DNA from: Candidatus Micrarchaeota archaeon
Lineage (GTDB): Archaea; Micrarchaeota; Micrarchaeia; Anstonellales; Bilamarchaeaceae
Reading direction: 5' to 3'
NCBI GenBank assembly: GCA_040757035.1
Contig: JBFLYM010000002.1
Location: 4,300 to 68,299, forward strand
Length of the DNA: 64,000 nt
Part shown: one piece after another, positions 4,662 to 35,213 of the stretch
Numbering within the stretch: the stretch's first letter is position 1
Layout of the letters: each line of letters begins with the position of its first letter
Notes under the pieces: generated by a model
Seen by the model: the letters and a program-made list of their open reading frames with translations, nothing else
The model's database searches: none
What the model was told of the DNA's origin: nothing
Position numbers and translations under genes: made by a program

Positions 4662-4703
4662 TTAAATCTCCTGCGGAATGCGAATCCAGGTTTATGCGTG
4701 TTT

Positions 4704-7879: not shown

Positions 7880-7894
7880 TTTATCGTACTCGTT

Positions 7895-11402: not shown

Positions 11403-12806
11403 TTATATCTTACTTTTCTTACTTTTGCCATGTTTTTTGTCATGTTTTTTCATCCATAAAATAAAATTTCCAAAGTCATGAGCCAATCCTTGGAATGGAT
11501 AAATCGTAACAATTTTTGCTATGAGTCTGCCAGTTGTTGCTTTTTTCAAAGGACGTACGATCTCTTTGGTGTTTGAAACAACGAAAAAACCAGTGATCAA
11601 TCTTGTCAATGCAATAATCAAAAAGAATATGTGAAAACTGAGAACGGCATTTCCCCCAAGAAACCCAAGAATCGCTCCGCCGAAAATTATTCCTGCAAAT
11701 GTTCCTGTACCACGAGAAAGAGAGAAATCTCCCATCGCGCTTACCCTTGAACGGACGGGTGTAATCTCGTAAAGGTAATTATATACCGTTGCGGATATAC
11801 CGCTCCAAATTATTCCGCTGTATGCTTCGGCAAGGAGAGATTGGACAAAATTGGAAACAAAAATCCAAGGCAATATCATTGTAAAGGAAAGCATACTTAC
11901 AGCGTTCAAGACCTTTTTAGTGCCGTATTTTTCTATCAATCTGCCCCAGTGTGGGGAAGCCAACGCGTAGCTTATTGTCCACAACGCTATTGTAAGTGAA
12001 AATTGGAAATAATCAAATTTAAGCATGTTGAACTTATATATTATTATGTACGGCGCAACCATATTGACTGAAAAGAAAACAAGAAAAATACAAACCAAAT
12101 ATTTCGTAAAATCGTTTCCGAGTTTGGATTTTGATTCTGCTTTTGGATTTGGGTCCCAATAAAGAGTAAGATAATAAGCACTAATGCTCCGAGTAACGAA
12201 TGCAATGAAAAAAAGCGTTCCGAAACCAAAGAATATGTTTGTTTTTGTGTAATCCAGAAAAATCCCTGCCAAAACAAGGGCAGCCAATCCTGCAAGATTC
12301 CACATTCTGTCCCTATAACCAAGCCAGCTCGCTCTTGTTTTTTCATGAACAACATCGCCTATAATTGCGAACCATGCTGGATTTACAACACCGCCAAAAA
12401 AATATATTGCAATTACAAGCAATATAAACGCAGTATTCGCAAAATCCTTAGAGAGTAAATTAAATTGGAACGCGAGCATCGCCACTCCGAACCATGTCAA
12501 AGCTTGTAGCGCAACTCCATAAATCAATATTTTTTTTCTTTCCCATCCAAAATCTGTGAAAAACGAGCCGATTTTCTGCGCAATGCCATCAAAAAGTGCA
12601 GGAAAAGAACCGAGCGCGGTTATGAAAAAAAGCGGAGCTTTGATTGCAATTGCAAACGGTGTCAGAAATACTGTGCCCGTATTCATCATTATTGCCCATA
12701 CTACTCCGTCTAGCGTGGAATAATGCATTGTTTTTTCTATTTTTTCTTTAACATTTTTTTCTTTAGCATTCATAATTATATCCTTGTCCAAATTATACCG
12801 ATCCAC
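11403..12806 (-). CDS. MFS transporter
   Basis: About 12 predicted TM helices and the GxxxDRxGRR-like loop (GYRDRMWN). Confidence 0.65.
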   Translation of the reverse strand: MDRYNLDKDIIMNAKEKNVKEKIEKTMHYSTLDGVVWAIMMNTGTVFLTPFAIAIKAPLFFITALGSFPALFDGIAQKIGSFFTDFGWERKKILIYGVALQALTWFGVAMLAFQFNLLSKDFANTAFILLVIAIYFFGGVVNPAWFAIIGDVVHEKTRASWLGYRDRMWNLAGLAALVLAGIFLDYTKTNIFFGFGTLFFIAFVTRSISAYYLTLYWDPNPKAESKSKLGNDFTKYLVCIFLVFFSVNMVAPYIIIYKFNMLKFDYFQFSLTIALWTISYALASPHWGRLIEKYGTKKVLNAVSMLSFTMILPWIFVSNFVQSLLAEAYSGIIWSGISATVYNYLYEITPVRSRVSAMGDFSLSRGTGTFAGIIFGGAILGFLGGNAVLSFHIFFLIIALTRLITGFFVVSNTKEIVRPLKKATTGRLIAKIVTIYPFQGLAHDFGNFILWMKKHDKKHGKSKKSKI

Positions 12807-12891
12807 TAAAAAAACGTGGATCGCATATACTCAACCAATCGAGATAAAACCTAAAAAACAAAACCGGAAAAACTTAGTTGGTTGAGTATAT
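12794..12891. repeat. 98-bp nested-hairpin repeat, copy B (family R1, opposite orientation to copy A)
   Basis: Reverse complement differs from 3261-3358 at one base. Confidence 0.9.
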
Positions 12892-14819: not shown

Positions 14820-14866
14820 AAATATTCGGTCCTCTGAAAAACGTGGATCGCATATGGGGTAATTTC

Positions 14867-18839: not shown

Positions 18840-19239
18840 AGTTACAAAAATAAGATTGATGAGGAGGTACGAAATGAAATTAGTTGAAATTAAGGATCTT
18901 TCTGTTGTTTTCGAAGAGCTTGAGCCAAAACAGGTGGCGTTCACGAACCCGAAATCGTTGTAAAAGCGCGCGCGTTTTGTAAAGTCAAGTTTGATGCTTC
19001 GGCTAAAGTCGGTAATATGAATGACTTGATAATCTGCCTTGAGGACTTGCTTAAACAAAGGGGCTAACATAGCCAAACCGAGATAAAAAACCGCCCGCTT
19101 GAGGTAAAGTGTGGTTGTTCTATTACAGAGATATATTTTTTGTTTATTTTTTATTCGTATTCGAACAAGTTGGCGGACAGCGAATCAATTAGGTATTGGT
19201 TGCGATATCTTATTAAACAATATTACGTAATATTAAAAA

Positions 19240-20994
19240 ATGAACGGGGCAGAACTTTTAACAAAAACGCTAATTGCGCATAATGTTAAGATAACATGGG
19301 GCATAACCGGAGGAGTGCTTATACCTTTATTTGACGCTATGCTTAACGAAAGCGACAACATAAAAAATATTCTTACAAGGCATGAACAAGGCGCAGTCCA
19401 TGCTGCTGAAGGATATTCACGCGCACTCGGAAAGCCAGGTGTGTGTATAGGAACGAGCGGTCCTGGAGCAACAAATTTAGTTACTGGAATAATGGACGCG
19501 TATATGGATTCTGTTCCGATAATCGCATTGGGCGGACAGGTTGCAACCCATCTTATAGGAAATGACGCGTTCCAAGAAACCGATATGTATGGAATAACTA
19601 TGCCGATAACCAAGCATAGTTTTGCGCTCCGCGATTCCGATAAAATTGGAATCACGCTGACAAAGGCATTCAAAATCGCAACAGAAGGGAGACCTGGTCC
19701 TGTTTATATAGATATGCCTATAGATGTACTAAAAAAAGAAGTTGGATCTCATCATGCTCATTACGCCCATCATATAAAACAAGCGTATATTGAAGGATTT
19801 CAGCCAACGCTAATACCAAATCACAGACAAGTCGTACGCGCAGCAGAACTCATACTCAAAGCAGAGCGGCCAGTTCTTATTGCAGGCGGAGGAGTTATAA
19901 TCGCAAATGCATCAAATGAACTTGCAGAACTCGCAACCCTATTATTTATTCCTGTTGTGACTACGCTCCAAGGTAAAGGTTGTTTTGACGAAAGACATCC
20001 GCTCGCTTTAGGAGTTATTGGCATGCATGGAAAAAAAGTCGCCAACTACGCACAAATAAACGCAGATGTAATTATAGCAATAGGTACAAGATTTTCTGAC
20101 AGAATTACCGGAAATCTTGCGAGTTATGCAGAACATGCGAAAGTTATACATGTGGATATTGATCCAGCAGAAATAGGCAAAAATGTAAAAGTTGAAGTAC
20201 CTATTGTTGGCGATGCAAAAAATACTCTTATTGCGTTGATACAGGTTATAAAAAAATTGATGAGAAAAAATGAAAAAAATGCGTGGAGCGAAAAATTAAT
20301 GCAGTTTAAAGAAATATGCGACAAGTGTATACTAATAGGTAAAATAGGCGGAAAGGAGGCTAATGTGCCTAATGTGCGGATTCATCCGCGGCAAATAATA
20401 GATGTGTTGAATTTCGTGCTTAAAGAAGATGATATCGTAACCACCGGAGTTGGGCAGCATCAAATGTTTGCAATGCATTTTCTTAAGCGTTCGCGGCCAA
20501 GAACGTTTATATCATCTGGCGGTTCTGGAACAATGGGTTTTGGACTTCCTTCTGCAATGGGTGCGAAGATTGCGATGCCGAATAAAAACGTAATTAATAT
20601 AGATGGCGATGGTTCGTTTCAGATGAACATTCAAGAACTTGGTACAATAAAAGAAAACAACATAAACATTACATCTATGATATTCAATAATTCGTACTTA
20701 GGAATGGTGCGCCAATGGCTTGAGATATTTTATGGAAAGAGATATGCGCAGGTAAATTTAGGTAAAAATATTCAATTCGCAAAAATAGCCGAAGCATATG
20801 GACTTAATGGCGAAGTTGTTGAGCGCTCTTCTGAATTAAATGAAAAAATAAAAAATGCGATTAAATCAGATGTTGCCACTGTGTTAGATGTGCGCATAGA
20901 GGAAGAATCAAACATCCTTCCAATGCTGCCGCCAGGAGGCAATCTCAAACAAATGTTCGGTCCCTGCATAAAAGGACCTGATCAGTGGTTTTGA
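19240..20994 (+). CDS. ilvB: acetolactate synthase, large (catalytic) subunit
   Basis: TPP-enzyme three-domain architecture with GTSGPGATNL, the FAD region and the C-terminal TPP motif GDGSFQMN. Confidence 0.9.
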   Translation: MNGAELLTKTLIAHNVKITWGITGGVLIPLFDAMLNESDNIKNILTRHEQGAVHAAEGYSRALGKPGVCIGTSGPGATNLVTGIMDAYMDSVPIIALGGQVATHLIGNDAFQETDMYGITMPITKHSFALRDSDKIGITLTKAFKIATEGRPGPVYIDMPIDVLKKEVGSHHAHYAHHIKQAYIEGFQPTLIPNHRQVVRAAELILKAERPVLIAGGGVIIANASNELAELATLLFIPVVTTLQGKGCFDERHPLALGVIGMHGKKVANYAQINADVIIAIGTRFSDRITGNLASYAEHAKVIHVDIDPAEIGKNVKVEVPIVGDAKNTLIALIQVIKKLMRKNEKNAWSEKLMQFKEICDKCILIGKIGGKEANVPNVRIHPRQIIDVLNFVLKEDDIVTTGVGQHQMFAMHFLKRSRPRTFISSGGSGTMGFGLPSAMGAKIAMPNKNVINIDGDGSFQMNIQELGTIKENNINITSMIFNNSYLGMVRQWLEIFYGKRYAQVNLGKNIQFAKIAEAYGLNGEVVERSSELNEKIKNAIKSDVATVLDVRIEEESNILPMLPPGGNLKQMFGPCIKGPDQWF

Positions 20995-21479
20995 TGGAGA
21001 AAAGGCATACTATTGCGATAACAGTGGAAGACCAGCCTGGCGTGCTAACGCGTATCGCAGGGCTTTTTTCGCGTAGAAGTTTTAATATAGACACTATCAC
21101 AGTAGGCAAAAGCGAAAGAGAAGGAATAAGTAAAATGATAATTAGTGTAATTGGCGATGACCACGATCTTGAACAAATTGAAAAACAAATAAACAAACTC
21201 ATAGACACAATAAAAGTAAGCGAAATGCCTGAGAAAAGTGCATTTATCGCTGAATTATGCATGATAAAGGTTGCGGTTTCGGACAAAAAAATTAAAGATG
21301 ATATATTTAGTTATGCGAGCGTATACAATGCAAAAATTGTTGGAATGACGAATAAAACTATGACCATGTACATAGTCGGCGAACCTGAAAATATTGAATC
21401 ATATATCAGGCTTATGAGTCAATTCGGAATAAAAGAGATAAGCAGAACAGGAATTACAGCGATTTCAAAGGATTGGTAA
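20985..21479 (+). CDS. ilvN: acetolactate synthase, small (regulatory) subunit
   Basis: ACT domain HTIAITVEDQPGVLTRIAGLFSRRSFNI. Overlaps ilvB. Confidence 0.85.
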   Translation: MVLMEKRHTIAITVEDQPGVLTRIAGLFSRRSFNIDTITVGKSEREGISKMIISVIGDDHDLEQIEKQINKLIDTIKVSEMPEKSAFIAELCMIKVAVSDKKIKDDIFSYASVYNAKIVGMTNKTMTMYIVGEPENIESYIRLMSQFGIKEISRTGITAISKDW

Positions 21480-21496
21480 TATACATATATGCGATC

Positions 21497-21516
21497 GATT
21501 TAGCGGCTCAGTAAAA
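21497..21516. repeat. 20-bp motif cgatttagcggctcagtaaa (left boundary of the two-ATPase block)
   Basis: Identical 20-mer at 24318-24337. A related 15-mer tcggcgctcagtaaa at 10036-10050 lies upstream of ATPase paralog 2. Confidence 0.7.
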
Positions 21517-21648
21517 AACAAAGGTTTTATGAAAAAAGCGAAGAAACTCGTTCGATTGTTACTACTATTGAGCAATAAAATTTCCAGCTATTATAAACTC
21601 GTATTTATAGAATTTGCGAAAAATCCATCATCCTAGAGGAACGAGGTG

Positions 21649-22899
21649 TTATCTCGACATCCACTTCCAAGCTGGTTCAATTACTATTCTTTTCTTATCT
21701 ATTTCTAATTTATCTTCTTGATCGAGCGTTATTATTATTCCTTCTTTCAAATTGTATCTATCTAATGCTTCCAAAAGCCCGCCCAGCTCCCGATCTTTAT
21801 TCTCATCTCCAACCTTAAAACAAACCTGCACTGCGAAAATTATCTTGTTGGCATCTTTGACCAGGAAATCGCATTCGCGCTTGCCTTTAAAATAATAAAT
21901 ATTTCTATATTTTTTTCTGAGATGCACATAAACAAGGTTTTCCAATAGTCTTCCCTTATCTTCAGATAGCGAAGTTGAGTTTATTCTTGATAATCCGTTG
22001 TCTATGGAGTATAATTTTTTTGGATTTACTAATTGTTTTCTCATTGAATAATCAAATCGAGGAACCGTAAACGCAAGATAACTATCTTCAAAAAACGAAA
22101 TGAAAGAAATAACACTATTGACCGAACCCAGTTCGAATATTTTCTTAAGAGAATTGTAGCTAAATTCCTTTCCAAAATTTGATAGAATGTACAGTGCCAT
22201 TTCATTTAAGGTTTTCAAATTCCTTATTTTGTGCCTTATAGATATATCTCTTGCGACAATATCGCCCAGCAAATGCCTGAGAACCTCGGGGTTTCGTTCT
22301 TTTAGATATTCCGGAAAGCCGCCGTTCCTTAGGTATTCCTCAAACGAATCCACGTCCGGATTCTGTTTCGTAAATTCTAAAAATTCAATATAAGAGAAGG
22401 GGTATAATTCATAAGTTAAGTGTCTGCCTGTCAAACGCGTTCCCAATTCTTTGCTTAGTAATGAAGCGTTGGAACCAGTTATAACAACATATTTTTTCTT
22501 TTCCAGGAGAGATCTTATATAGAGTTCCCATTTGTCCACGCTCTGTATCTCATCAAAAAAATAACAATTCTGTTCCCCTAATTCTTCTTTAAAAGCCTCA
22601 TCCAATCGCTGGAAGTCATTCAGTCCGAAACCAAATGCACGTGGGTCGTCGAAGTCGAAATAATAAAACGACTGATATTTCTTCATTAATTGGCGCATTA
22701 GTGTACTCTTGCCGCATCGTCTTATCCCAGAGATAATTATCGCAAAATTGGTAATTACTGGCATCTCTTTTAATTTTTCCCGTTCTACTCCATAATCCCG
22801 TTGTTTGAACTCTTTATTTTGGGATCGTACAATTTCCTTTAGAACATCCTTTAATATCATGGATGTAGTTTCTACATCTCTCTTTATAAATGTTTTCAT
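21649..22899 (-). CDS. AAA+ ATPase, COG1373 type (AAA_14 + DUF4143), paralog 3
   Basis: GIRRCGKST and FFDEIQ motifs. C-terminal RECDFLVKD. Ends PAWKWMSR. Confidence 0.75.
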   Translation of the reverse strand: MKTFIKRDVETTSMILKDVLKEIVRSQNKEFKQRDYGVEREKLKEMPVITNFAIIISGIRRCGKSTLMRQLMKKYQSFYYFDFDDPRAFGFGLNDFQRLDEAFKEELGEQNCYFFDEIQSVDKWELYIRSLLEKKKYVVITGSNASLLSKELGTRLTGRHLTYELYPFSYIEFLEFTKQNPDVDSFEEYLRNGGFPEYLKERNPEVLRHLLGDIVARDISIRHKIRNLKTLNEMALYILSNFGKEFSYNSLKKIFELGSVNSVISFISFFEDSYLAFTVPRFDYSMRKQLVNPKKLYSIDNGLSRINSTSLSEDKGRLLENLVYVHLRKKYRNIYYFKGKRECDFLVKDANKIIFAVQVCFKVGDENKDRELGGLLEALDRYNLKEGIIITLDQEDKLEIDKKRIVIEPAWKWMSR

Positions 22900-22953
22900 T
22901 GATAGTGCACACTATTGCTCATTGGCAATGAAATGGTGCTTACTTAATAATAT

Positions 22954-22995
22954 TCTTTTCCGATGCGATTAACCGCGCATGCAAATATTCCATTT
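22954..22995. repeat. 42-bp intergenic copy of an internal segment of the CN-hydrolase gene
   Basis: Exact 42/42 identity with 24514-24555 (minus strand encodes NGIFACAVNRIGKE). Together the two copies flank the ATPase gene 23020-24102 in direct orientation. Confidence 0.9.
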
Positions 22996-23019
22996 CATTG
23001 ATTATATTTATCTCTAGCG

Positions 23020-24102
23020 CTACAAACCCTGATCGCGTCTCACAGCCGAAAACTTCAAGGCTTCTTTTATAATTGGGTCTCCGAGATTGTATTTTCCCCC
23101 TTTTTCTTCTATGAACCCATATTCCTGCAGCTGATCAAGAAGATTGGAAAGCCTGCTATCTGGAATTGGTTGACCTGATTTCGCTATGATAAAATTTTTT
23201 ATTTCGTTCCATGAAAGCGGCTCTTGGCTGAGAGACGCCAATATAAACAGATAGCGCTCCTTTGCCGCGATTCTCATGTTTAGGAACTCCTTAAGTTCAG
23301 CCGCTATAATCTTTGAGCTGTCTTTTAGTGTTTTTGAAAGAGCAACTTCATGGAACAATTCCTGCCTATAAAAACCATAATAAGTAAGCCAGCCAATCAC
23401 ACCGTCAAGCTTATCAACCGCTGTTTCAATTTCATTTTCTCGAATATTTATTTTCAACTGAGCAAAACCGGTCCTTAAAAACGTGATAGAATCCTTGCGT
23501 TCCAGCCTCCTTAAATTTATCACTTTTTTTGGCCGCCCATACAGTAGGCTCCCGATCTCGGAGCCTATAAACTTGTCCAATATGCCTATTTCGGAACCGG
23601 CAAGTATGATTTTTATTCTTTTTAGTCTATCGTAGATGAAAGCCAAGAAACGGTCAAATCCTGAGGGTTTTAGAAGCTGAACTTCGTCAATAAAAAGGCA
23701 GAAAAAATCATTTCTATCCTCCATCATCTTATCAATTCTTTTTGCCAACTCGCTCAGGCCCTTTTCTTCCCTAAAGCTTAATTTTACATAAATATCCAGG
23801 CCTTCAAGATAGGATTTCGCTTTCTCGTACATGCTTATACTTCTTAGAAAATCGTAAAATGTCCTTCCAATATGTTCATAAACTGCTTTCCTCCCCTTCG
23901 CAATTTCCCTAGAATCGATAAAAAGCTTTGGATGTTTGATTTCGCTGTAAACTACATTCATTAAACTAGTCTTGCCTGTTCTTCGCAATCCGCGCAACAC
24001 TATGAGCCGCTGCTGTTCGAGTACCCTTTCTATTTCCGCACATTCCTTATCGAAACCGAACAAATCTTTTCTGCTCGTCTTTGGTGTGATGTCAAAGTAC
24101 AT
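23020..24102 (-). CDS. archaeal ATPase (Arch_ATPase/COG1672-like, with C-terminal wHTH)
   Basis: LRGLRRTGKTSL Walker A and LFIDEVQ Walker B. Architecture differs from the COG1373 paralogs. Confidence 0.65.
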   Translation of the reverse strand: MYFDITPKTSRKDLFGFDKECAEIERVLEQQRLIVLRGLRRTGKTSLMNVVYSEIKHPKLFIDSREIAKGRKAVYEHIGRTFYDFLRSISMYEKAKSYLEGLDIYVKLSFREEKGLSELAKRIDKMMEDRNDFFCLFIDEVQLLKPSGFDRFLAFIYDRLKRIKIILAGSEIGILDKFIGSEIGSLLYGRPKKVINLRRLERKDSITFLRTGFAQLKINIRENEIETAVDKLDGVIGWLTYYGFYRQELFHEVALSKTLKDSSKIIAAELKEFLNMRIAAKERYLFILASLSQEPLSWNEIKNFIIAKSGQPIPDSRLSNLLDQLQEYGFIEEKGGKYNLGDPIIKEALKFSAVRRDQGL

Positions 24103-24317
24103 GAAGAACGTTTAAGTGGAAAGGCTTTTAATACTAACGGGGCGTTAGTTACTAACGGGACGTTAGTAATTGTATGCTAATTATATGAAACTAAATCGAA
24201 AGGCATACCTTTTGAGATAGATACAACTACTGTAGATCAAATGACCGTAATGGCAGAGCCAATAAACCAAAAATATATCGATGAAGTGCTCAAGATTTCT
24301 CAAATTTCTGGATTTAG

Positions 24318-24337
24318 CTCGATTTAGCGGCTCAGTA
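24318..24337. repeat. 20-bp motif cgatttagcggctcagtaaa (right boundary of the two-ATPase block)
   Basis: See 21497-21516. Preceded by a local tandem gctaaatc x2. Confidence 0.7.
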
Positions 24338-25205
24338 AATGAGTATAACATTCAGATCTGCGATTATTGAGGAATTGCCAGCCGTTTCTTATTTTTTTAC
24401 ACATGGTTAAATCAACAACCGCAATAGAAGTGGTTTCGTTTCTACCAGCGCGCTTTATTATTTTGCCAAACGCATCGCATACGAACGAACCACCCCAAAA
24501 AGTTATTCTATCTTCTTTTCCGATGCGATTAACCGCGCATGCAAATATTCCATTTGCAATACAATGTCCGCGCATTACATTTTCCCACGCGCTTTTCCAA
24601 TTACCTTCGGTTTGTTTTATTCCTTTTATCGTACCTATTGCGGTGGGATAAAATATGATGTCCGCTTTCATAAGCGCGCTTATTCTTGCGGCTTCTGGAA
24701 ACCATTGGTCATAGCATATAAGTACGCCAATATTTCCATAATTTGTTTTGAACACTTTGAATTCTTCTCCGGGCGCAAAATAGTCCTTTTCCCAATAGCA
24801 TTCATCATATGGGATGTGAACTTTGCGGTATTTTCCTATTATGTTTCCGTTCTGGTCAAAAATTATAGAAGTGTTATATATTCTTTCGCCCGCTTTTTCG
24901 CATACCGAACCGCCTACGAGTATTATATTGTTATCACGCGCCGCTTTCGCAAGCGCATCTATAATTCTTTCAAAATTATCAGTGTATTCCGCGGTATATT
25001 TCGCGCGCTCATTTGTTTTTTTATATTGTGCGAAATATTTTGAAGCGAAAAGTTCAGGGAGACAAACAATGTTTGCGCCTTTTTTTGAGGCCATTGCGAT
25101 TTGTTTTACAGTACGCGCCAAATTTTCAGTAACGCTGTTGGACATACGCATTTGTATTAACCCTATCTTTGTCTTTCTTTTAGTTAACTCTAAGCGTTTG
25201 ATCAT
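24324..25205 (-). CDS. aguB: carbon-nitrogen hydrolase (N-carbamoylputrescine amidase-like)
   Basis: E-K-C triad context with PELF, RKVHIP and GVLICYDQWFPE. ORF opens at 25277 but the start is probably MIKRLELTK at 25205. Confidence 0.7.
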   Translation of the reverse strand: MIKRLELTKRKTKIGLIQMRMSNSVTENLARTVKQIAMASKKGANIVCLPELFASKYFAQYKKTNERAKYTAEYTDNFERIIDALAKAARDNNIILVGGSVCEKAGERIYNTSIIFDQNGNIIGKYRKVHIPYDECYWEKDYFAPGEEFKVFKTNYGNIGVLICYDQWFPEAARISALMKADIIFYPTAIGTIKGIKQTEGNWKSAWENVMRGHCIANGIFACAVNRIGKEDRITFWGGSFVCDAFGKIIKRAGRNETTSIAVVDLTMCKKIRNGWQFLNNRRSECYTHLLSR

Positions 25206-25380: not shown

Positions 25381-26562
25381 CTACTGAATTATTCCGAATG
25401 CCCTAAGGAAATCTAATGCAGCACTCTTTCCTGCTTCCCATGCAAGCGGGAGTTTCTCAAAATCAGTGAGTCCAATGTCCCATATACCTCTACCTATTTG
25501 GCAATGAATTGTGTTGAAAGGAAGCGATCTCATCATGGTTGTATCCATCTGTCCACGGGTAGCGATGTTAGTTTGCATAGAAAGTGCATTTCTTATCCTA
25601 TTCCACCAAGCGTGGAGATCGATTTCACGGTGACCTGGGAAAGCAGTACAAAGATCTATGACAATGTCGTTTGGCATCATATTAGCAAGTAATATGCCTA
25701 ATGGATAGTTGTACATATATCCGCCATCAAAAAGAGCGCCGCGTTCTGTAGCTTGTACGGGATACAATGAAACTATTCCATCTCCTTCTCTAATTGCCTG
25801 AAATGTTTCGCCGTGCGGACATCTCAAATTCTCAAATATTGGTAAGGACATTGATGCGTAAAGCGCCTCATATATTTTGAATCGTGGACTATACTCTGAA
25901 GAAAGAACAATTTTTTCAAAACTAGATACCTCATCATCGCGCATTGAATTCATAAGGGTCGCCATTATATACAGACCCGGAATATCTTCCATTGTTTTAT
26001 TTCCGTATTTTTGATCAAGTATTTCATCTATAAACATCATTATTTTATCGCCCTTGAGGGGAGGAAAAAAAAACTCTTTAAAATTTAGATCCCACATTAG
26101 AGCGCGCAGCAATTTCGCATTAAATACTTCCTTTACAACATCAAAATCGCATCCCATCTTGATTAACAACCCTGCAAGCGCGCCGCCAGAAGTACCAGCT
26201 ATATTTGTTATTGGAATGTTATGTTCATACAGAGTATTTACGAGTGCGAGAAATGCAAAAAATTTTATCCCAGCGCCACTCAATGCCAAATGGATGTTTA
26301 CTTTATCCAGATCAACGTTATTGTCAAGTTGCGTGGCATCTCCTAAGTAGAATATGTCTCCGCCAGTAATTAACTCTCTATGCCCGTTGAATTCGTTACG
26401 TGGTAAATTATGGTTTTTGAACACATCATAAAACTCTTTAATATTGGCGGTTTTCGCGAGCCGATCGGGTGCTTCAGAATATCTATTAGACACTGCATTA
26501 TTCCCTATTTCTTTTGCTGCACGCCGTATAATTTTATCTGGAAAAAGTACTGGGTATAACAT
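25381..26562 (-). CDS. patatin-like phospholipase
   Basis: LSGAGIKF oxyanion motif and GTSGG (GxSxG) nucleophile elbow. Confidence 0.65.
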   Translation of the reverse strand: MLYPVLFPDKIIRRAAKEIGNNAVSNRYSEAPDRLAKTANIKEFYDVFKNHNLPRNEFNGHRELITGGDIFYLGDATQLDNNVDLDKVNIHLALSGAGIKFFAFLALVNTLYEHNIPITNIAGTSGGALAGLLIKMGCDFDVVKEVFNAKLLRALMWDLNFKEFFFPPLKGDKIMMFIDEILDQKYGNKTMEDIPGLYIMATLMNSMRDDEVSSFEKIVLSSEYSPRFKIYEALYASMSLPIFENLRCPHGETFQAIREGDGIVSLYPVQATERGALFDGGYMYNYPLGILLANMMPNDIVIDLCTAFPGHREIDLHAWWNRIRNALSMQTNIATRGQMDTTMMRSLPFNTIHCQIGRGIWDIGLTDFEKLPLAWEAGKSAALDFLRAFGIIQ

Positions 26563-26746: not shown

Positions 26747-28555
26747 ATGATAGAAGGAGAAATATCAGAATTACGAAAAAAAATTGCCACCATCGCAACA
26801 CTAGCTATAACTGATATAGCTAAAATCCAAGGAGAAATAAAAAGTGATATAGAAAAGTTGCCAGAGACAGATTCACAAAGAAACACATTATCTAATGCAC
26901 TTGATGAGGCAGTACGCAATCGAATTAAAACTGAACTAAATTTTGAAAAATCATTAGCATCTAATATTCTACAAAAGGTGGTAACAGAGATACGCAAGAA
27001 TTTTGAATTGAACGCTGAGCTACTTTTTATCCTTGATATCGAATTAGACGAAGGAATTAAATCTGAAATAGAAAAAATTATCCGGAGTACAGATCCACCT
27101 TTTAAAAAAGGCCTTAAACTATATACTCGGTGGAGTATATTAACAAAACTTGGAATACCTGGCGACACAACTGGATCAATTAACGAGCGTATTACCCCCG
27201 AAGCAAGCAAATTACTCACACAATTAATTGCAGAAGCAGAACCAAAAGTGACCAACGCAATAAATGAAAACTCGGTATCGAAAAATGAAGAAGTGCTTAG
27301 ATATTTTCCTCTTATTATAAAACTCAATGGAATAGTTAAAGGAGATAAAGAAAAAGAAATAAATAAAACAATATCAGAACAAATAACAAAGTTATTTGAA
27401 ATTGTACAAAAAGAAGACAATATCAATAAAACAGAAATAATTTCTCAGTTTGTTGGTTTGATTCCATCATTACATGGAAAAAAAGAACTTATGGGTATAT
27501 TTCTACATCTATATGAAAAAAAGATAGATATTACTCCGATTCCAGAAGATAGAAAAAAGTTCATTGAGACTTTTAAGACTTGGAATGTTGAAATTAAAGA
27601 TTTAGCAATATCAGGAGAAGAAAAAAACAAATTGATTATATATCTCTGTGAAAAAATAATAAAAGAGTGTGATATACAATCTAATTCAGACTTATCTTCA
27701 TATGCTAATAAAATACCAGCGATTTATAAGGTCTTGGAAGTATTGAAATCTATTACCGGAGAGGCAAGAAGTTTAACCACACAATTAATTGCAGAAGCAG
27801 AAACAAAAATAGATGAAATTGCTGCAAAAGTGTTTGATTTAATACAAAAAGATGTTGATAAAAACTCCAATATAGAAGTACAGAAAAAAATTAGACTGCT
27901 GTTTGATGTAATAGAAAATGCACAAGAATTTGTTGAAAAATACGAATCAAAAATACAAGGCCAATTAATAGATGTATATATAAATGCTATTTGTTCTCGT
28001 GTTCTGCAACAAGGATCAGTTAGCGGAAGGCTTAACGATCCGGATGCATTCCTTTTTGTAGCTATTAGAGATGTTATAGACCAATTATTACCAAATCTTT
28101 ATAAATTCTATAAATGCCACCCTGAGATAGCTTCTCCTGCAGTGTATGCAGTTGAAGAAGACATTGAAACATTATATAAATTATATGTACAATCTAAATG
28201 GGCAGAAAAAAGAGATGAGTTAAAAAATGGACAACAAGCAAGTTGTTGGGTATCAACTGAAGGATTAGAAAAGATAATTAGGGAAGAAATTGACCCTAAG
28301 ATTGCTAAACAGGATATGCAAGAGATTAAAGAATTGCTTGCCAGATGTAAATATGCAATAACGAGATATTGTTTGGATTTTGATAAACGAATGACGACAG
28401 TTGAAGCGATACAAAACGATATAATGACTAAAACTGATGCACAACCGCTTGAGCCAACAAAAGTTCGTGAATTGATTTTGAGGATTATTAATGGCCAAAA
28501 AACTTTGCAACTTAGTGTTGTAAGTCAACTAATTACGCAAAAGTTAGTAAGATAA
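26747..28555 (+). CDS. hypothetical protein, predicted helical with an internal repeat
   Basis: 602 aa rich in charged, helical residues. Repeated segment LT(Q/T)QLIAEAE(P/T)K at two positions. No catalytic motif. Confidence 0.4.
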   Translation: MIEGEISELRKKIATIATLAITDIAKIQGEIKSDIEKLPETDSQRNTLSNALDEAVRNRIKTELNFEKSLASNILQKVVTEIRKNFELNAELLFILDIELDEGIKSEIEKIIRSTDPPFKKGLKLYTRWSILTKLGIPGDTTGSINERITPEASKLLTQLIAEAEPKVTNAINENSVSKNEEVLRYFPLIIKLNGIVKGDKEKEINKTISEQITKLFEIVQKEDNINKTEIISQFVGLIPSLHGKKELMGIFLHLYEKKIDITPIPEDRKKFIETFKTWNVEIKDLAISGEEKNKLIIYLCEKIIKECDIQSNSDLSSYANKIPAIYKVLEVLKSITGEARSLTTQLIAEAETKIDEIAAKVFDLIQKDVDKNSNIEVQKKIRLLFDVIENAQEFVEKYESKIQGQLIDVYINAICSRVLQQGSVSGRLNDPDAFLFVAIRDVIDQLLPNLYKFYKCHPEIASPAVYAVEEDIETLYKLYVQSKWAEKRDELKNGQQASCWVSTEGLEKIIREEIDPKIAKQDMQEIKELLARCKYAITRYCLDFDKRMTTVEAIQNDIMTKTDAQPLEPTKVRELILRIINGQKTLQLSVVSQLITQKLVR

Positions 28556-28580: not shown

Positions 28581-30335
28581 CTATATATTAAACGACGAAA
28601 CAAGCCTTTCAATTTGAAGCAATATCTCTTTTTCTTCTTGGCTCAACAGTTCAATTTTCTTTTTCCATTTTTCCAATTCGTTCTTTGTCATATATGTAAT
28701 AAGTATATCCTCCTGAAATACATCATTATTTAATGTTACTTCATCTATTGAGATAGCTGTTTGGAGACCTTTTTCAGCGATATTTAGTGCTTCTTTTTCC
28801 CTTTGTATTGTCTTTATTTCTCCTAAAACAACCCCGTTTTTATTCATGATTTTGAAGTGTGGTTTAAGTCTTCCGGCTAAAACTTCTATCCCAAAGATAG
28901 CAGGTTTGCTCATGCGAAAGAAACAATTTGGCAGTACTTTTATCGCGCATGGCCACGGCATCTTTTCAAAAACTTCTTTTTTCTCTTTTTCTTTTTCTTC
29001 TGACTTCCATTCATTGTAATTATCAACAAGTTTGTAAATTATATTGCTGTATATTATCGGAATATTTGTTTCTCTGCACGCAGTTCTCGCATCTGGCAAA
29101 ATCTGTACATTAAATGCAAATACTATACCGGTATATTTATCCTGCGCACCGACATTCGCGGCTATGAAAACATCGTTTTTTGTTACCGCACCCACATTCG
29201 CTGTTTTTATTGGAATTTTTTCATCTGTAAGTATTTTGAGTATCGCTTCTATGCTTCCCAAACTATCCGCTTTTATTATTGCGCCTAATCCAGAATTTTC
29301 AAAAATAAGTTTGCTTACCTGTGCTTCTATTTCTTTTTTGTTTTTTTCATAATCCTTATGGTCTTTGATTGCGACAAATGGGGAACCGCTTAGCGCATCT
29401 TCTAAATTTGGTGCCAAAATTTTAATCCCGGCTGCAGCAGCGATTTGTTTCACGCGCATAAACTTTTCTTTCGCACCATCTAAACTAGGTTCAAGCAACG
29501 CACGGATTTTTGTTTTTTTCACACCATGCTTGCCGAGAAAAAGAATTTCTTCGCCTTCGCTTAGTATTCCATCATAAATAATTATGTTTATTGTTGGTCC
29601 AAGCCCGCGTTCATCCTTTACTTCTATTATACTACCCTTTGCGCCTTTATCTGAATGAAAATGAAGCTCATTTTCTAAAAATTTTTGACTTAGTCCTGCG
29701 ATCAAAAGAAGAATTTCCGCGATGCCTTCATGCGTTTTAGCGCTTAGAGGTACTATTCCAAGCTGCTTGGTAAAGTCCGCTACCCTGTCAAAACGCTCTG
29801 AATCAAAATTATATTCAGAAAGCGCGCCAATCAATTCATATATTTTGTTATTTAAGTTGCTCTTCACATGTTCGGATTGTTTCGCAAATGATTCTAAAAA
29901 AGAATTTGTATTTTGCGTTTTCCATCCGGTGATCAAATCAATTTTATTCGCTGCGATTAAAAAAGGGGTTTTCGCATTCTTTAATATTTTCAGGCTTTCT
30001 ATTGTTTGCGGTTGAAACCCCTGCGCAATATCTACAACCAGCACCGCCATGTCGGCAATGCTTCCTCCGCGTTCCCGCAAATTAACGAATGCCGCATGGC
30101 CAGGAGTATCTATAAAAAGAATTCCTGGTATATGCAAATGCATCGTCATTTTTTTTGCAATTGATTTTGAAATTTCATCTATATTCTCTTTTCGGATGTA
30201 ACTTGCGCCGATCATTTGCGTAATGCCACCGGCTTCTTTCTTGGCAATACACGTGCCTCGCACAGCGTCAAGTAGCGAGGTTTTTCCATGATCAACATGA
30301 CCTAATACAGCGATTATTGGAGAACGAATACGCAT
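28581..30335 (-). CDS. infB: translation initiation factor IF-2 (aIF5B)
   Basis: GHVDHGKTSLLD (G1), DTPGH (G3) and NKID (G4) with aIF5B domain order. Probable start MRIRSP at 30335 (ORF opens at 30347). Confidence 0.9.
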   Translation of the reverse strand: MRIRSPIIAVLGHVDHGKTSLLDAVRGTCIAKKEAGGITQMIGASYIRKENIDEISKSIAKKMTMHLHIPGILFIDTPGHAAFVNLRERGGSIADMAVLVVDIAQGFQPQTIESLKILKNAKTPFLIAANKIDLITGWKTQNTNSFLESFAKQSEHVKSNLNNKIYELIGALSEYNFDSERFDRVADFTKQLGIVPLSAKTHEGIAEILLLIAGLSQKFLENELHFHSDKGAKGSIIEVKDERGLGPTINIIIYDGILSEGEEILFLGKHGVKKTKIRALLEPSLDGAKEKFMRVKQIAAAAGIKILAPNLEDALSGSPFVAIKDHKDYEKNKKEIEAQVSKLIFENSGLGAIIKADSLGSIEAILKILTDEKIPIKTANVGAVTKNDVFIAANVGAQDKYTGIVFAFNVQILPDARTACRETNIPIIYSNIIYKLVDNYNEWKSEEKEKEKKEVFEKMPWPCAIKVLPNCFFRMSKPAIFGIEVLAGRLKPHFKIMNKNGVVLGEIKTIQREKEALNIAEKGLQTAISIDEVTLNNDVFQEDILITYMTKNELEKWKKKIELLSQEEKEILLQIERLVSSFNI

Positions 30336-30452
30336 AAGGAACACCATGTTTATTATTTATATACAATCCATACAATTCGCGTTTTTTAGCGGATCGGTGT
30401 ATATAAAGGATCGGTATATATAAATAAAGAAAGATATTATAAAAGGAAATCT

Positions 30453-33782: not shown

Positions 33783-33788
33783 TCTAAT

Positions 33789-35213
33789 TTGCAAACGATC
33801 GGAAAAATTTGGTTGGTTGAGTATATGCCTGGAAAAATATTTGCAGTTGTTGGCAATCCAATACTCCATAGTAAAAGTCCAGAGATGTTCAATGCAGCAT
33901 TTAAGAAATTAAAGATAAACGCTATCTATATAAGAATTGCCGCATTTGATGCAGAAGAAGTGATGCGCACCGCAGATGATATTGGGCTATGTGGTTTAAA
34001 CATTACTTCGCCATTTAAGGAAGAATTAAAGAAAAAAATGCGCGTTTCGAATTCGTTAAACACACTCATAAATACAATCATTATAGATAAAAACGCAAGA
34101 GAAATCGATGCAATAAACTGTATAATTTGCAAAAATGATCCAAAATCAAAGTGTCCGAAGAAACAATTACTGGTTGGTTATAATACCGATGTTGCTGGCG
34201 TTATTGGTGCGCTCAAACATAATTCTTGCGATTTTGTTGGTAAAAAAATCATAGTGCTCGGTGCTGGAGGTGCGGCAAAGGCAGCGATATACGCACTTGT
34301 TTCTAAAAAAGCGGATGTAGTGGTGGTAAACCGCACATTCAAAAAGGCAAAAAAACTTGCGCAGCGATTTGGTTGCAGAGTCTCAAAATTTGATGAAATT
34401 GCGCAAGAACTCGAACATGCGAACATTCTAATCTCATGCGTTCCTACTGGCGAACGAATAATTCCAAAATCAGCGCTACGCAAAACGCTTAGTGTATTAG
34501 ATGCAAATTACTCAATAGATACAGCACTCAAAAAAGATGCAAAGAGCAATAATTGTAAAATAATTGATGGAAGAGAATGGTTACTTTTTCAGGCAATTCC
34601 GTGTTTTAAATATTTTATTGGTAAAAAAGCACCAGTCGCAGCGATGCGCAAAGTGCTTTACTCAAAAAAGAAAAGAAAAAAAAATATCGCTCTTATTGGT
34701 TTTATGGGTAGCGGAAAAACAGCGGTTGCTAAAGAACTCGCAACACTTAACGGAATGAAATCCGTAGATATAGACGCTAACATAGAAAAAAACATGAATA
34801 TGAAAATAGCGCAAATTTTTGAAGATATGGGAGAACGCGAATTTAGAAAAATAGAAAACGCGGAATTAAAAAAGGCGCTTGAATCCGAAAACGCAATAAT
34901 TTCCTGCGGAGGCGGGTTAGTGTTAGATCCGCGCAATGTAGACATGCTAAAAAGAGATTGCACTGTTTTTTGGTTATGGGCAGATATAACAACCATAATG
35001 GAAAGAATAAGTAAAGATGATTCAAGACCATTGATCAGAACTAAAAACAAAGGCGATCTCAAAACCAAAATCGAAATCGCCAAAAAAATATTAGAGCAGC
35101 GGTTATTTGTTTACGCAAACGCTTGCGATGCTCTAATAAATACAGTTGGAAAAAAACCAAAAGAAATTGCCGCAAGGATAGATTATGAAATTAACGAAAT
35201 TAATAAAGCCTAG
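33789..35213 (+). CDS. aroE: bifunctional shikimate dehydrogenase / P-loop shikimate kinase (AroE-AroK fusion)
   Basis: N-terminal AVVGNPILHSKSP with a Rossmann GAGGAAKA (AroE). C-terminal IALIGFMGSGKTAVAKELA...ISCGGG (bacterial-type shikimate kinase I). Probable start MPGKIF at 33825. Confidence 0.8.
   Translation: MQTIGKIWLVEYMPGKIFAVVGNPILHSKSPEMFNAAFKKLKINAIYIRIAAFDAEEVMRTADDIGLCGLNITSPFKEELKKKMRVSNSLNTLINTIIIDKNAREIDAINCIICKNDPKSKCPKKQLLVGYNTDVAGVIGALKHNSCDFVGKKIIVLGAGGAAKAAIYALVSKKADVVVVNRTFKKAKKLAQRFGCRVSKFDEIAQELEHANILISCVPTGERIIPKSALRKTLSVLDANYSIDTALKKDAKSNNCKIIDGREWLLFQAIPCFKYFIGKKAPVAAMRKVLYSKKKRKKNIALIGFMGSGKTAVAKELATLNGMKSVDIDANIEKNMNMKIAQIFEDMGEREFRKIENAELKKALESENAIISCGGGLVLDPRNVDMLKRDCTVFWLWADITTIMERISKDDSRPLIRTKNKGDLKTKIEIAKKILEQRLFVYANACDALINTVGKKPKEIAARIDYEINEINKA

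What the first reader, a model, noticed from the sequence alone, without database searches (positions are those of the whole stretch)
21497..24555. Two-ATPase block bounded by identical 20-mers, with one ATPase flanked by a 42-bp duplicate of neighbouring coding sequence
The 20-mer cgatttagcggctcagtaaa occurs at 21497-21516 and 24318-24337 in direct orientation. The two copies enclose ATPase paralog 3 (COG1373) and the Arch_ATPase gene. Inside this block, 22954-22995 is an exact 42/42 copy of 24514-24555, which lies within the intact CN-hydrolase coding sequence. So ATPase 23020-24102 is itself flanked by 42-bp direct repeats 1.56 kb apart. A perfect 42-bp coding fragment stranded in an intergenic region points to a recent insertion, duplication or illegitimate-recombination event centred on the ATPase genes.
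Basis: seen in the sequence. Interest (0 to 1): 0.7.

Follow-up and report, generated by a model that had tools for sequence, protein, structure and literature searches.

The report
Insertion scars around two ATPase genes
Two accessory, candidate anti-virus ATPase genes sit between two housekeeping genes of a tiny uncultured archaeon, and short exact copies of the neighbouring DNA mark the joints; these are most likely scars of how the genes were inserted, which makes this an ordinary kind of event preserved unusually cleanly.

Summary
Both repeats are real. A 21-mer lies at 21495-21515 and 24319-24339. A 43-mer (46 nt with one mismatch) lies at 22953-22995 and 24513-24555. The window is from a Candidatus Micrarchaeota MAG.

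The repeats bracket a PDC-S01-type AAA_14+DUF4143 ATPase and an ATPase_2+winged-helix ATPase. These sit between convergent ilvN and an aguB-like CN-hydrolase gene.

B1 keeps its native left flank, the second half-site of a promoter-like palindrome family. B2 keeps its native right flank, the hydrolase stop codon. That is the pattern a 21-bp target duplication predicts.

The 43-mer in the hydrolase is native conserved coding sequence. The intergenic copy lies exactly at the joint between the two ATPase cassettes.

The four copies are interleaved, not nested, so no single simple insertion explains them.

Best reading: insertion scars. Either a 21-bp target duplication plus a templated filler patch, or a 237-bp duplication whose interior a second cassette replaced.

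Independent k=31 contigs reproduce three of the four junctions. No close relative exists, so no empty site can be shown.

Eight of nine comparable repeat pairs in the window border accessory NTPase genes.

One of those pairs proved to be a conserved about 50-nt hairpin at both ends of an ATPase gene across Micrarchaeota, which is more interesting than the finding itself.

The parts
20985..21479 (+). ilvN (acetolactate synthase small subunit), the left host gene, convergent with the hydrolase
   Evidence: Pfam ACT_AHAS_ss and ALS_ss_C. Contiguous with B1 and the COG1373 gene in an independent Logan contig, L026.
21486..21496 (-). Second half-site (GATCGCATATA) of the window's palindromic promoter-like element family. 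This is the native left flank of B1.
   Evidence: Four occurrences in the window against 0.03 expected. The other three are the full 100-nt elements. Alignment.
21495..21515 (.). B1: the 21-nt direct repeat TCGATTTAGCGGCTCAGTAAA, 16 nt after the ilvN stop
   Evidence: Contains the family motif TTTAGYGGNTCRGT.
21516..21648 (.). 133-nt tail downstream of the COG1373 gene, of unknown origin. Contains a 19-mer (21603-21621) identical to the leader of the L1 ribosomal protein gene (57994-58012).
   Evidence: No Pfam match for its small ORF.
21649..22899 (-). AAA_14 + DUF4143 ATPase (COG1373 paralog 3), a PADLOC PDC-S01 candidate defence protein
   Evidence: Pfam. PADLOC PDC-S01 E=2.7e-111, full length. 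32-37% identical to the two other paralogs in the window.
22900..22952 (-). 53-nt upstream region (promoter) of the COG1373 gene
   Evidence: Sequence. Contiguous with the first 30 nt of A1 in Logan contig L026.
22953..22995 (.). A1: the 43-nt exact copy (46 nt from 22950 with one mismatch) of hydrolase coding sequence, stranded exactly at the joint between the two ATPase cassettes
   Evidence: No significant secondary structure, z=+1.0.
23020..24102 (-). ATPase_2 (archaeal AAA+) with a C-terminal MCM_C-type winged helix. Weak PDC-S27/S01 similarity.
   Evidence: Pfam. PADLOC. Orthologs of 55-70% identity lie in unrelated contexts.
24133..24170 (.). Tandem 18-nt palindromic operator-like site (TTACTAACGGGGCGTTAG, two copies) upstream of ATPase_2. 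It marks the 5' edge of the cassette.
   Evidence: Conserved upstream of the orthologs in L002, L003, L004 and L005.
24171..24318 (.). 148 nt of unknown origin between the operator and B2. Ends with a partial B-like octamer GATTTAGC (24311-24318).
   Evidence: No similarity to anything in the window or the loci. The octamer alone is not significant.
24319..24339 (.). B2: second copy of the 21-mer. On the minus strand it encodes the last 4 codons and the stop of the hydrolase (L-S-R-stop region).
   Evidence: The hydrolase ends at the same position as its closest ortholog.
24324..25205 (-). Intact CN-hydrolase, aguB-like (N-carbamoylputrescine amidase family, below the NCBIfam cut-off), the right host gene
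   Evidence: Pfam CN_hydrolase 1e-60. TIGR03381 E=1e-73 but 248 bits against a cut-off of 410. 100% match to NCBI MAG protein P0001, 293 aa.
24513..24555 (.). A2: the original of the 43-mer, inside the hydrolase CDS (NGIFACAVNRIGKE)

Best explanation
The repeats are scars of non-homologous insertion. Before the event, convergent ilvN and the aguB-like hydrolase were separated by about 20 nt. That spacer was a promoter-like palindromic element which overlapped the hydrolase stop codon.

Two single-gene ATPase cassettes, each with its own promoter or operator, were captured at this point. One is the PDC-S01-type COG1373 gene. The other is the ATPase_2/winged-helix gene. The target 21 nt was duplicated. 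B1 stayed with its native left flank and B2 with its native right flank.

The joint between the two cassettes was filled with a 43-46-nt patch copied from the hydrolase gene. In the ancestral arrangement the source lay only about 174 nt beyond the break. This is templated filler, made by template switching during repair or replication.

Shown: the repeats, the direction of copying, the native and foreign flanks, cassette edges that coincide with repeat edges, and the accessory nature of the genes. Inferred: the ancestral adjacency, the order of events and their number (one complex event or two successive ones), and the enzymology.

One consequence follows. Recombination between B1 and B2 would delete both ATPases and restore the ancestral junction. 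Recombination between A1 and A2 would delete ATPase_2 but truncate the hydrolase by 62 residues.
For: 1. B1 abuts GATCGCATATA, the second half-site of the family palindrome. That half-site occurs 4 times against 0.03 expected, and the other 3 are the full elements (alignment). B2 lacks this half-site but carries the hydrolase's native stop. Native outer flanks with foreign inner flanks are the signature of a target duplication.

2. A2 is native conserved coding sequence. A1 has foreign sequence on both sides. It sits 24 nt after the ATPase_2 stop and 53 nt before the COG1373 start, which is exactly the cassette joint.

3. Cassette edges are defined independently. ATPase_2 orthologs share only the gene plus the upstream 18-nt tandem operator, and their neighbours begin within 5-14 nt.

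4. The ATPases are accessory. PDC-S01 scores E=2.7e-111. [quoted passage not shown] Homologs sit in unrelated, often ATPase-rich contexts.

5. The same kind of patch recurs at other accessory-gene joints in this window. An 84-91-nt fragment of the hyp268 CDS abuts the repeat flanking the COG2865 gene, with an ATTTG overlap. A 34-40-nt decarboxylase fragment lies next to COG1373 paralog 1. A 19-mer of the L1 leader lies in the COG1373#3 tail. Eight of 9 non-family repeat pairs touch intergenic DNA bordering one of the 6 accessory NTPase genes.

6. Only 3 of 57 genes have strong flanking direct repeats, and all three are accessory NTPases (plus the 43-mer).

7. Three junctions are reproduced at 100% identity in independent k=31 Logan contigs of run SRR32167786.
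Against: No empty site or close relative exists. The nearest hydrolase ortholog is 70% identical and has different synteny, aguB followed by aguA. So the ancestral ilvN/hydrolase adjacency is inferred only.

A 21-bp target duplication matches no well-known transposase stagger. No transposase, integrase or terminal inverted repeats are present.

Templated filler of 40-90 nt is well documented for eukaryotic end joining, which I state from general knowledge. I found no report of it for archaea.

The data fit the 237-bp-duplication rival equally well.

The enrichment statistics are post hoc and limited to one 64-kb window. One coding-fragment copy (L1, 57952-57987 to 63005-63040) lies away from any ATPase.
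Confidence: 0.4

Rival explanations
1. A 237-bp duplication followed by a second insertion. The ATPase_2 cassette (22996-24318) entered with a duplication of the whole 237-bp target, from B through the 174-nt hydrolase tail to A. Two routes are possible: Campbell-type integration of a circle carrying that host fragment, or a replication-based tandem duplication. The COG1373 cassette later landed in the non-functional left duplicate and deleted its 171-174-nt interior. Only the 21-nt and 43-46-nt edges remained.
For: It explains the interleaved order B1<A1<B2<A2 with two ordinary events. It also predicts that all four inner repeat edges coincide with cassette ends, which they do. The structure A2...ATPase_2...A1 is formally one unit plus a short overlap of a 1,560-bp circle. 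Repeat-flanked single-gene units of 1.1-1.4 kb are common among related ATPases.
Against: No trace of the 174 nt survives between B1 and A1. A 237-bp duplication has no parallel elsewhere in the window. The model does not explain the other junction patches, whose sources lie 0.4-36 kb away. It needs a donor that already carried the cassette at this locus if the Campbell route is invoked.
Confidence: 0.3
2. A and/or B are recombination sites in active use. A trans-acting recombinase, or homologous recombination, excises and reintegrates the ATPase block as 1.56-kb or 2.82-kb circles. The repeats are then functional att-like sites rather than passive scars.
For: Direct repeats bracketing single accessory genes recur in this group. 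For the AAA_14 family the repeat-bounded unit is what is shared between unrelated contexts: L006 and L010 are 95% identical only from repeat to repeat. The two copies also evolve in concert. The k=31 assembly graph at the 43-mer is compatible with a loop.
Against: A is ordinary conserved coding sequence with no structure. A and B are absent from the loci of ATPase_2 orthologs. No integrase or recombinase was detected in the 64 kb. Excision at A would truncate the hydrolase.
Confidence: 0.12
3. Assembly artefact. The 43-mer is a node shared by two molecules or strains, and the MAG assembler traversed a loop that does not exist in any one genome.
For: The source is a metagenome-assembled genome. 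Logan k=31 contigs break exactly 30 nt inside the 43-mer from both sides, so those contigs do not prove linkage across it.
Against: All flanks exist at 100% identity in an independent assembly. A 43-nt repeat is shorter than the final k of common metagenome assemblers and much shorter than the reads, so it should have been spanned; this is inference. The alternative linkage leaves the hydrolase truncated and puts its native 3' end, which shares the CKK(I/V)R(N/D)GW signature with the nearest ortholog, on a 1.56-kb circle. Similar roughly 50-nt flanking repeats, with mismatches between copies, appear in 14 independent assemblies.
Confidence: 0.06
4. The 21-mer pair is two independent members of the intergenic motif family TTTAGYGGNTCRGT and not a duplication. 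This rival concerns B only.
For: The motif occurs 7 times in the window against 0.14 expected. B shares 13-14 of 17 positions with the other members.
Against: B1 and B2 are identical at all 21 positions. This includes 4-5 positions where they differ from every other member. It also includes the TCGA prefix, which in B1 is the edge of a B1-specific 6-nt deletion in the palindrome. Other members differ from one another at several of these positions.
Confidence: 0.04

Closest known systems
Small genomic islets or defence islands bounded by short direct repeats of the target (insertion with target duplication)
   Same: Accessory candidate-defence genes lie between housekeeping genes. The outer 21-nt direct repeats keep native outer flanks. 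Recombination between them would restore the ancestral junction.
   Different: No transposase, integrase or inverted ends. The 21-nt length fits no standard stagger. An additional 43-nt host fragment lies inside the insert, interleaved with the outer repeats.
Campbell-type integration of archaeal integrative elements into the 3' end of a gene (SSV-type or pTN3-type elements, casposons at gene 3' ends); recalled from general knowledge
   Same: Direct repeats of 20-50 nt, one of which overlaps the 3' end or stop codon of an intact host gene. The flanked unit is formally one circle plus an overlap.
   Different: No integrase or casposase. The hydrolase 3' end appears native and was not supplied by the element. 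The repeat A is internal coding sequence and is not conserved with the cassette.
Templated insertions (filler DNA) and microhomology-mediated template switching at repair or replication junctions (MMBIR/FoSTeS, polymerase-theta end joining); recalled from general knowledge
   Same: Short exact patches copied from nearby sequence, in direct orientation, located exactly at novel joints. Several such patches occur in one genome. There is a 5-nt overlap (ATTTG) between adjacent patches at 47733-47739.
   Different: These mechanisms are described mainly in eukaryotes and a few bacteria. No enzymology is known for DPANN archaea. Microhomology at the A1 and B joints cannot be assessed without the pre-insertion sequences.
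Integron gene cassettes with attC sites (including the archaeal integrons reported in 2022; recalled, not read here)
   Same: Single promoter-proximal ORFs bracketed by imperfectly palindromic repeats of about 50 nt. This applies to the AAA_14 R-gene-R units noticed in passing.
   Different: No IntI. No RYYYAAC/GTTRRRY core. No cassette array. A and B are not palindromic, and A has no structure.

Membership tests
IS element or transposon with target-site duplication | Element-encoded transposase | tested here: not met
   Only the two ATPase genes lie between B1 and B2. Pfam finds AAA_14, DUF4143, ATPase_2 and MCM_C and no transposase domain.
IS element or transposon with target-site duplication | Terminal inverted repeats at the insert ends | tested here: not met
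   No inverted repeat joins 21516... with ...24318 in the repeat searches. The ends were also read directly.
IS element or transposon with target-site duplication | Short direct duplication of the target, native on the outside and foreign on the inside | tested here: met
   B1 has its native left flank, the family half-site. B2 has its native right flank, the hydrolase stop. The inner flanks are unrelated.
Integrative element with att sites (tyrosine or serine recombinase) | Integrase gene in or next to the element | tested here: not met
   No recombinase domain in any of about 57 ORFs of the window. The rest of the genome was not available.
Integrative element with att sites (tyrosine or serine recombinase) | The element supplies a replacement 3' end for the target gene | tested here: not met
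   The hydrolase segment after A shares lineage-specific residues, CKK(I/V)R(N/D)GW, with the nearest ortholog. The apparent identity drop is tail divergence in both lineages.
Integron cassette / attC | attC core sites RYYYAAC...GTTRRRY and a folded hairpin | tested here: not met
   A has no significant fold, z=+1.0. B is 21 nt. Neither carries the cores.
PADLOC PDC-S01 (candidate single-gene defence: ATPase + PD-(D/E)XK) | Full-length match to the PDC-S01 profile | tested here: met
   21649-22899(-): PDLC04787 E=2.7e-111, residues 37-415 on profile positions 10-407 of 412.
PADLOC PDC-S01 (candidate single-gene defence: ATPase + PD-(D/E)XK) | Demonstrated protection against viruses | not testable with these tools
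PADLOC PDC-S27 | Full-length match to the PDC-S27 profile | tested here: inconclusive
   23020-24102(-): PDLC04984 E=8.7e-7, 26 bits, residues 14-333.
Diversity-generating retroelement (template and variable repeat pair) | Reverse transcriptase nearby and adenine-specific differences between the repeats | tested here: not met
   No RT domain in the window (the Pfam calls). The 43-mers are identical.
N-carbamoylputrescine amidase (aguB, TIGR03381) | Score above the NCBIfam equivalog cut-off | tested here: not met
   248 bits against a cut-off of 410. It is the best-scoring family, and the closest ortholog is followed by a PAD_porph agmatine deiminase. I therefore call it 'aguB-like' only.

The most novel reading that the evidence does not exclude
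The single-gene NTPase cassettes of Micrarchaeota would be a previously undescribed class of mini mobile elements with no recombinase gene of their own. The group includes PDC-S01-type COG1373, ATPase_2, COG2865 and the AAA_14 family with its conserved 50-nt terminal hairpin repeats. They would move through circular or longer-than-unit-length intermediates and leave or use terminal direct repeats. The A and B duplications at ilvN/aguB would be the same machinery acting on host sequence. Repeat-mediated excision would give reversible gain and loss of defence genes.
Probability: 0.13. Interest if true: 0.8.

Novelty: new member of a known kind. Interest (0 to 1): 0.4.

Why it matters
DPANN archaea are reported to rely on compact single-gene candidate defence systems such as PDC-S01 and PDC-S27 (PMC12988326). 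How these genes spread without recognisable mobile-element genes is not known.

This locus preserves the joints of such an acquisition at single-base resolution. It shows a duplicated 21-nt target and a 43-nt patch copied from the neighbouring gene. The same window shows further patches at other accessory-gene joints.

If read-level and population data confirm this, it gives a concrete, testable picture of recombinase-independent gene capture, and possibly of reversible loss through the flanking repeats, in very small genomes.

On its own the finding is a well-preserved example of a familiar kind of event and not a new system.

Tried and rejected
1. Empty-site and synteny comparison. Scans of genome and metagenome collections with the hydrolase gave one locus at 69-70% identity with different synteny, and nothing closer. 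The insertion therefore cannot be dated or an empty site shown.

2. Foreign replacement 3' end. Identity to the nearest ortholog drops after A: 72% falls to 55%, which is the lowest 2% of comparable pairs, and max-chi2 gives p=0.0005. The alignment shows shared lineage-specific residues after A, and the divergence is confined to the last 25-35 residues in both lineages. Rejected.

3. Residual homology between the inner flanks of the repeats at DNA and protein level: none.

4. Identity of the 148-nt and 133-nt filler segments and their small ORFs: no Pfam or tblastx match.

5. RNA explanations. There are no Rfam families in the window, and A has no structure.

6. Bacterial promoter and terminator scan. 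Uninformative for an archaeon.

7. Viral origin. No relatives of the COG1373 or COG2865 proteins, or of the R hairpin, in IMG/VR.

8. Integron attC and DGR readings were rejected on their defining features.

9. Retrieving the Logan contig across B2 and A2 with the predicted 72-aa partial product: not on record. Junction J4 and the linkage across the 43-mer remain unverified.

10. Covariation in the R hairpin is not above the shuffled controls.

11. Literature searches for DUF4143, COG1373, AAA_14 and Micrarchaeota mobile elements found nothing on repeat-flanked ATPase genes.

Full report
OBSERVATION

Both repeats exist. The 20-mer is exact at 21496-21515 and 24320-24339. It extends to 21 nt, TCGATTTAGCGGCTCAGTAAA, at 21495-21515 = 24319-24339. 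The coding-fragment repeat is 43 nt exact at 22953-22995 = 24513-24555, or 46 nt from 22950 / 24510 with one mismatch. Neither repeat appears twice in any shuffle. The self-blast E-values are 2e-3 and 3e-16. Similarity ends sharply at the repeat edges.

WHERE WE ARE

The hydrolase and both ATPases are 100% identical to proteins of an NCBI MAG named Candidatus Micrarchaeota archaeon, on a 77,725-bp contig. An archaeal aIF5B at 28581-30347 agrees with that origin. GC content is about 36% and does not change across the block.

Gene order is as follows:
- ilvB 19240-20994(+)
- ilvN 20985-21479(+)
- AAA_14+DUF4143 ATPase 21649-22899(-)
- ATPase_2 with an MCM_C-type winged helix 23020-24102(-)
- CN-hydrolase 24324-25205(-)
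- patatin 25381-26562(-)

The hydrolase is aguB-like. TIGR03381 is its best family but scores below the cut-off. In the closest relative the ortholog is followed directly by a PAD_porph agmatine deiminase.

ANATOMY

Read on the minus strand, the order is:
- hydrolase 5' part
- A2
- 174 nt of native hydrolase tail
- B2, which holds the last codons and the stop
- 148 nt of unknown origin
- an operator-like tandem palindrome at 24133-24170
- ATPase_2
- 24 nt
- A1
- 53 nt
- the COG1373 ATPase
- 133 nt
- B1
- 16 nt
- the ilvN stop

The four copies are therefore interleaved (B1<A1<B2<A2), not nested.

A2 encodes NGIFACAVNRIGKE, which is conserved in orthologs. So A2 is the original and A1 the copy.

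The hydrolase ends at the same alignment position as its nearest ortholog. After A it shares with that ortholog the lineage-specific CKK(I/V)R(N/D)GW. Its 3' end is therefore native. An apparent drop in identity after A comes from divergence of the extreme tail in both lineages.

THE 21-MER IS NOT AN ARBITRARY SEQUENCE

It contains TTTAGYGGNTCRGT, which occurs 7 times in the window against 0.14 expected. This motif is one half of a palindrome, ATATGCGATCCAC-N9-GTGGATCGGTATA. The palindrome lies in a roughly 100-nt element repeated at 3261-3359, 12793-12891 and 51748-51848, with partial copies elsewhere, nearly always just upstream of gene starts.

The other half-site, GATCGCATATA, occurs four times (0.03 expected). 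Three are in the full elements. The fourth is at 21486-21496, abutting B1.

So B1 sits in a genuine, slightly deleted member of this family and keeps its native left flank. B2 has only the 21 nt and keeps its native right flank, the hydrolase stop. The inner flanks are unrelated. That is exactly what a 21-bp target duplication predicts.

B1 and B2 are identical at every position, including those where they differ from all other family members. They also share the TCGA edge of the B1-specific deletion. This argues against two independent motif copies.

THE ATPASES ARE ACCESSORY CASSETTES

The COG1373 protein matches PADLOC PDC-S01 over its full length (E=2.7e-111). ATPase_2 matches PDC-S27 and PDC-S01 weakly. 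[quoted passage not shown] They are reported as enriched in Archaea, with DPANN enriched in several such candidates (PMC12988326). DUF4143/COG1373 is listed in the PD-(D/E)XK superfamily (PMC3424549).

ATPase_2 orthologs of 55-70% identity lie between unrelated housekeeping genes, or beside other ATPases, in other contigs. What they share with the window is the gene plus the upstream tandem 18-nt palindrome TTACTAACGGGGCGTTAG. Neighbouring genes start within a few bases of these limits. This defines the cassette. It places A1 and B2 at or beyond the cassette edges.

The window holds six such accessory NTPase genes: three COG1373 paralogs that are only 31-37% identical to each other, one AAA_14-only gene, ATPase_2 and a COG2865 Schlafen/AlbA_2 protein.

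ARE SUCH FRAGMENTS TIED TO THE ATPASE GENES?

Within this window, yes.

Among 57 genes, only three have strong direct repeats on both sides, and all three are accessory NTPases (plus the 43-mer, which lies just outside that script's flank).

In a census of all self-matches with E<=0.05, and apart from the 100-nt family and one intra-protein repeat, there are 9 pairs. Eight of them touch intergenic DNA that borders an accessory NTPase gene.

There are four copies of coding sequence in intergenic DNA:
- hydrolase to A1
- hyp268 45971-46054 to 47656-47739, directly abutting the repeat that flanks COG2865, with an ATTTG overlap
- decarboxylase 4251-4284 to 4672-4705, next to COG1373 paralog 1
- one exception, L1 57952-57987 to 63005-63040, upstream of SBDS, which may be regulatory

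These statistics are post hoc and cover 64 kb only.

ASSEMBLY

Independent Logan (k=31) contigs of run SRR32167786 match the window at 100%.
- L026 = 18965-22982. It covers ilvB, ilvN, B1, COG1373, the 53 nt and the first 30 nt of A1.
- L025 = 22966-24220. It covers the last 30 nt of A1, the 24 nt, ATPase_2 and the operator.

Three of the four novel junctions are thus reproduced. Both contigs stop exactly k-1 nt inside the 43-mer, as a repeat longer than k forces. They therefore do not test which left flank is joined to which right flank. The alternative linkage would leave a truncated hydrolase and a 1.56-kb circle carrying its native tail. I consider that unlikely but could not exclude it without reads.

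MECHANISM

Two scenarios fit equally many facts.

(T) Capture of the two cassettes at the ilvN/hydrolase junction, with a 21-bp target duplication and a 43-46-nt templated filler at the joint between the cassettes. The filler was copied from a source that lay only about 174 nt beyond the break.

(D) Insertion of the ATPase_2 cassette with duplication of the whole 237-bp segment from B to A, by Campbell-type or replication-based means. A COG1373 insertion then replaced the interior of the left duplicate.

I favour T slightly because other junction patches in the window have sources 0.4-36 kb away, which D does not explain. The preference is weak (0.4 against 0.3).

Active att-like function of A and B (0.12), assembly artefact (0.06) and independent motif copies for B (0.04) are less likely.

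No transposase, integrase, inverted ends, attC cores or reverse transcriptase were found.

SIDE FINDING THAT CHANGES THE CONTEXT

The 54-nt pair at 54101-54154 / 55380-55433 flanks the AAA_14-only gene (54128-55342, minus strand). It is not a scar.

The gene belongs to a family of about 400 aa with about 50 members at 51-63% identity in Micrarchaeota.

In 14 of 16 metagenome loci with enough flank, the gene is bracketed by the same element of about 50 nt, TTTGTTCAGAAAACCGACCAAAAATAGCnAAAAATGGTCGGAAGTCTGAAC. The upstream copy ends 24-50 nt before the ATG, just before a TATA-like box. The downstream copy covers the last eight codons, FVQKTDQK, and the stop.

The two copies of a locus differ by 1.4 positions per 48. 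Copies from different loci differ by 7.3. All 26 copies are closest to their own partner.

L006 and L010 share 95% identity only from repeat to repeat, in unrelated flanks. Two strains that are 98% identical have the loop variants swapped between the two copies.

The element folds into a stable hairpin (-19.9 kcal/mol, z=-4.9), but covariation is not above the controls.

A 38%-identical paralog in L005 has its own 52-nt pair at the homologous codon. An ATPase_2 paralog there has a 31-nt exact pair.

This repeat-gene-repeat unit may be mobile, or it may be a looped operator kept uniform by gene conversion. Either way it is the more interesting object. It shows that 'ATPase flanked by direct repeats' has more than one cause in this lineage.

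VERDICT

The structure is best read as the scars of inserting two candidate-defence ATPase cassettes between ilvN and an aguB-like gene. It is a clean example of a known kind of event, of moderate interest. The exact mechanism is unresolved, and a read-level check is outstanding.

Noticed in passing
window 54101-54154 and 55380-55433 (gene 54128-55342, minus strand); loci L006-L019, L021: A conserved hairpin element of about 50 nt (GTTCAGAAAACCGACCA...TGGTCGGAAGTCTGAAC) brackets an AAA_14-only ATPase gene in the window and in 14 of 16 Micrarchaeota metagenome loci. The upstream copy lies just before the TATA-like box. The downstream copy covers the last 8 codons (FVQKTDQK) and the stop. The two copies evolve in concert: 1.4 differences within a locus against 7.3 between loci, per 48 nt. 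L006 and L010 share 95% identity only from repeat to repeat. I found no published description.
   Followed up: partly
L005 7087-7138 / 8347-8398 (gene 7109-8317, minus strand) and L005 3928-3958 / 5044-5074 (gene 3944-5020, minus strand): A 38%-identical AAA_14 paralog has its own 52-nt 98% flanking pair, which starts at the homologous codon (LVGK against FVQK). An ATPase_2 paralog is flanked by 31-nt exact palindromic repeats (TACTTCCGCCCGGAAGTTACTTCCGCCCTAA), with one copy over its stop codon.
   Followed up: partly
window 47733-47787 and 49115-49168 (gene 47816-49120, plus strand); 47649-47739 and 45964-46054: The COG2865 (Schlafen AlbA_2 + HATPase_c_4 + HTH) gene is flanked by 49-55-nt 94% direct repeats. 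The downstream copy starts at its stop codon. Directly abutting the upstream copy is an 84-91-nt 95-98% copy of internal coding sequence of the hypothetical gene 45838-46644, with an ATTTG overlap between the two patches.
   Followed up: partly
window 4251-4290 and 4672-4711: A 34-40-nt 88-91% copy of internal Orn/Arg-decarboxylase coding sequence fills most of the 42-nt spacer between that gene's start and the stop of COG1373 paralog 1 (4704-5966).
   Followed up: no
window 3261-3359(-), 12793-12891, 51748-51848; partial copies at 33787-33826, 62784-62820, 14837-14855, 6873-6897, 30385-30398: A repeated intergenic element of about 100 nt (94-99% identity) with the core palindrome ATATGCGATCCAC-N9-GTGGATCGGTATA. 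It is almost always just upstream of gene starts, several of them polyamine genes. It looks like a shared bidirectional promoter or operator module. At 3261-3359 it overlaps the last 31 codons of the decarboxylase ORF.
   Followed up: partly
window 24133-24170; L002 4832-4867; L004 about 5338-5375; L005 5934-5969: ATPase_2 orthologs of 55-70% identity share an upstream tandem 18-nt palindrome, TTACTAACGGGGCGTTAG in two copies, 30-70 nt before the ATG. It is probably the operator of the protein's own winged helix.
   Followed up: partly
window 57952-57987 and 63005-63040; 57994-58012 and 21603-21621; 28088-28116: The first roughly 12 codons of ribosomal protein L1 have a 36-nt 97% sense-oriented copy 87 nt upstream of the SBDS gene. 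This could be a second L1 autoregulatory site. The 19 nt just upstream of the L1 start recur exactly in the tail of COG1373 paralog 3 and, at 79%, inside ORF 26747-28555.
   Followed up: no
L025 and L026 (Logan contigs of SRR32167786) against window 22953-22995: Both independent contigs end exactly 30 nt (k-1) inside the 43-mer. L025 also starts at 24220 with no repeat in the window to explain the break. This could reflect strain variation or low coverage there.
   Followed up: partly
L001 6028-6894 and 6899-7957, against window 24324-25205: In the closest relative, the hydrolase is followed after 4 nt by a PAD_porph agmatine deiminase, forming an aguB-aguA pair. The window has no PAD_porph gene among the ORFs of at least 100 aa that I scanned with Pfam, and the ATPase block occupies the position downstream of the hydrolase.
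   Followed up: partly
window 7084-7107: A perfect 24-nt palindrome inside the pyruvate:ferredoxin oxidoreductase beta subunit gene.
   Followed up: no
protein list (P0228, P0243, P0247, P0253, P0255, P0261, P0263): Seven Logan contigs carrying AAA_14 family members are 1,272-1,300 nt long. That is the length expected if k=31 assembly breaks at both flanking R copies. It suggests the repeat-gene-repeat layout holds in many more samples.
   Followed up: no
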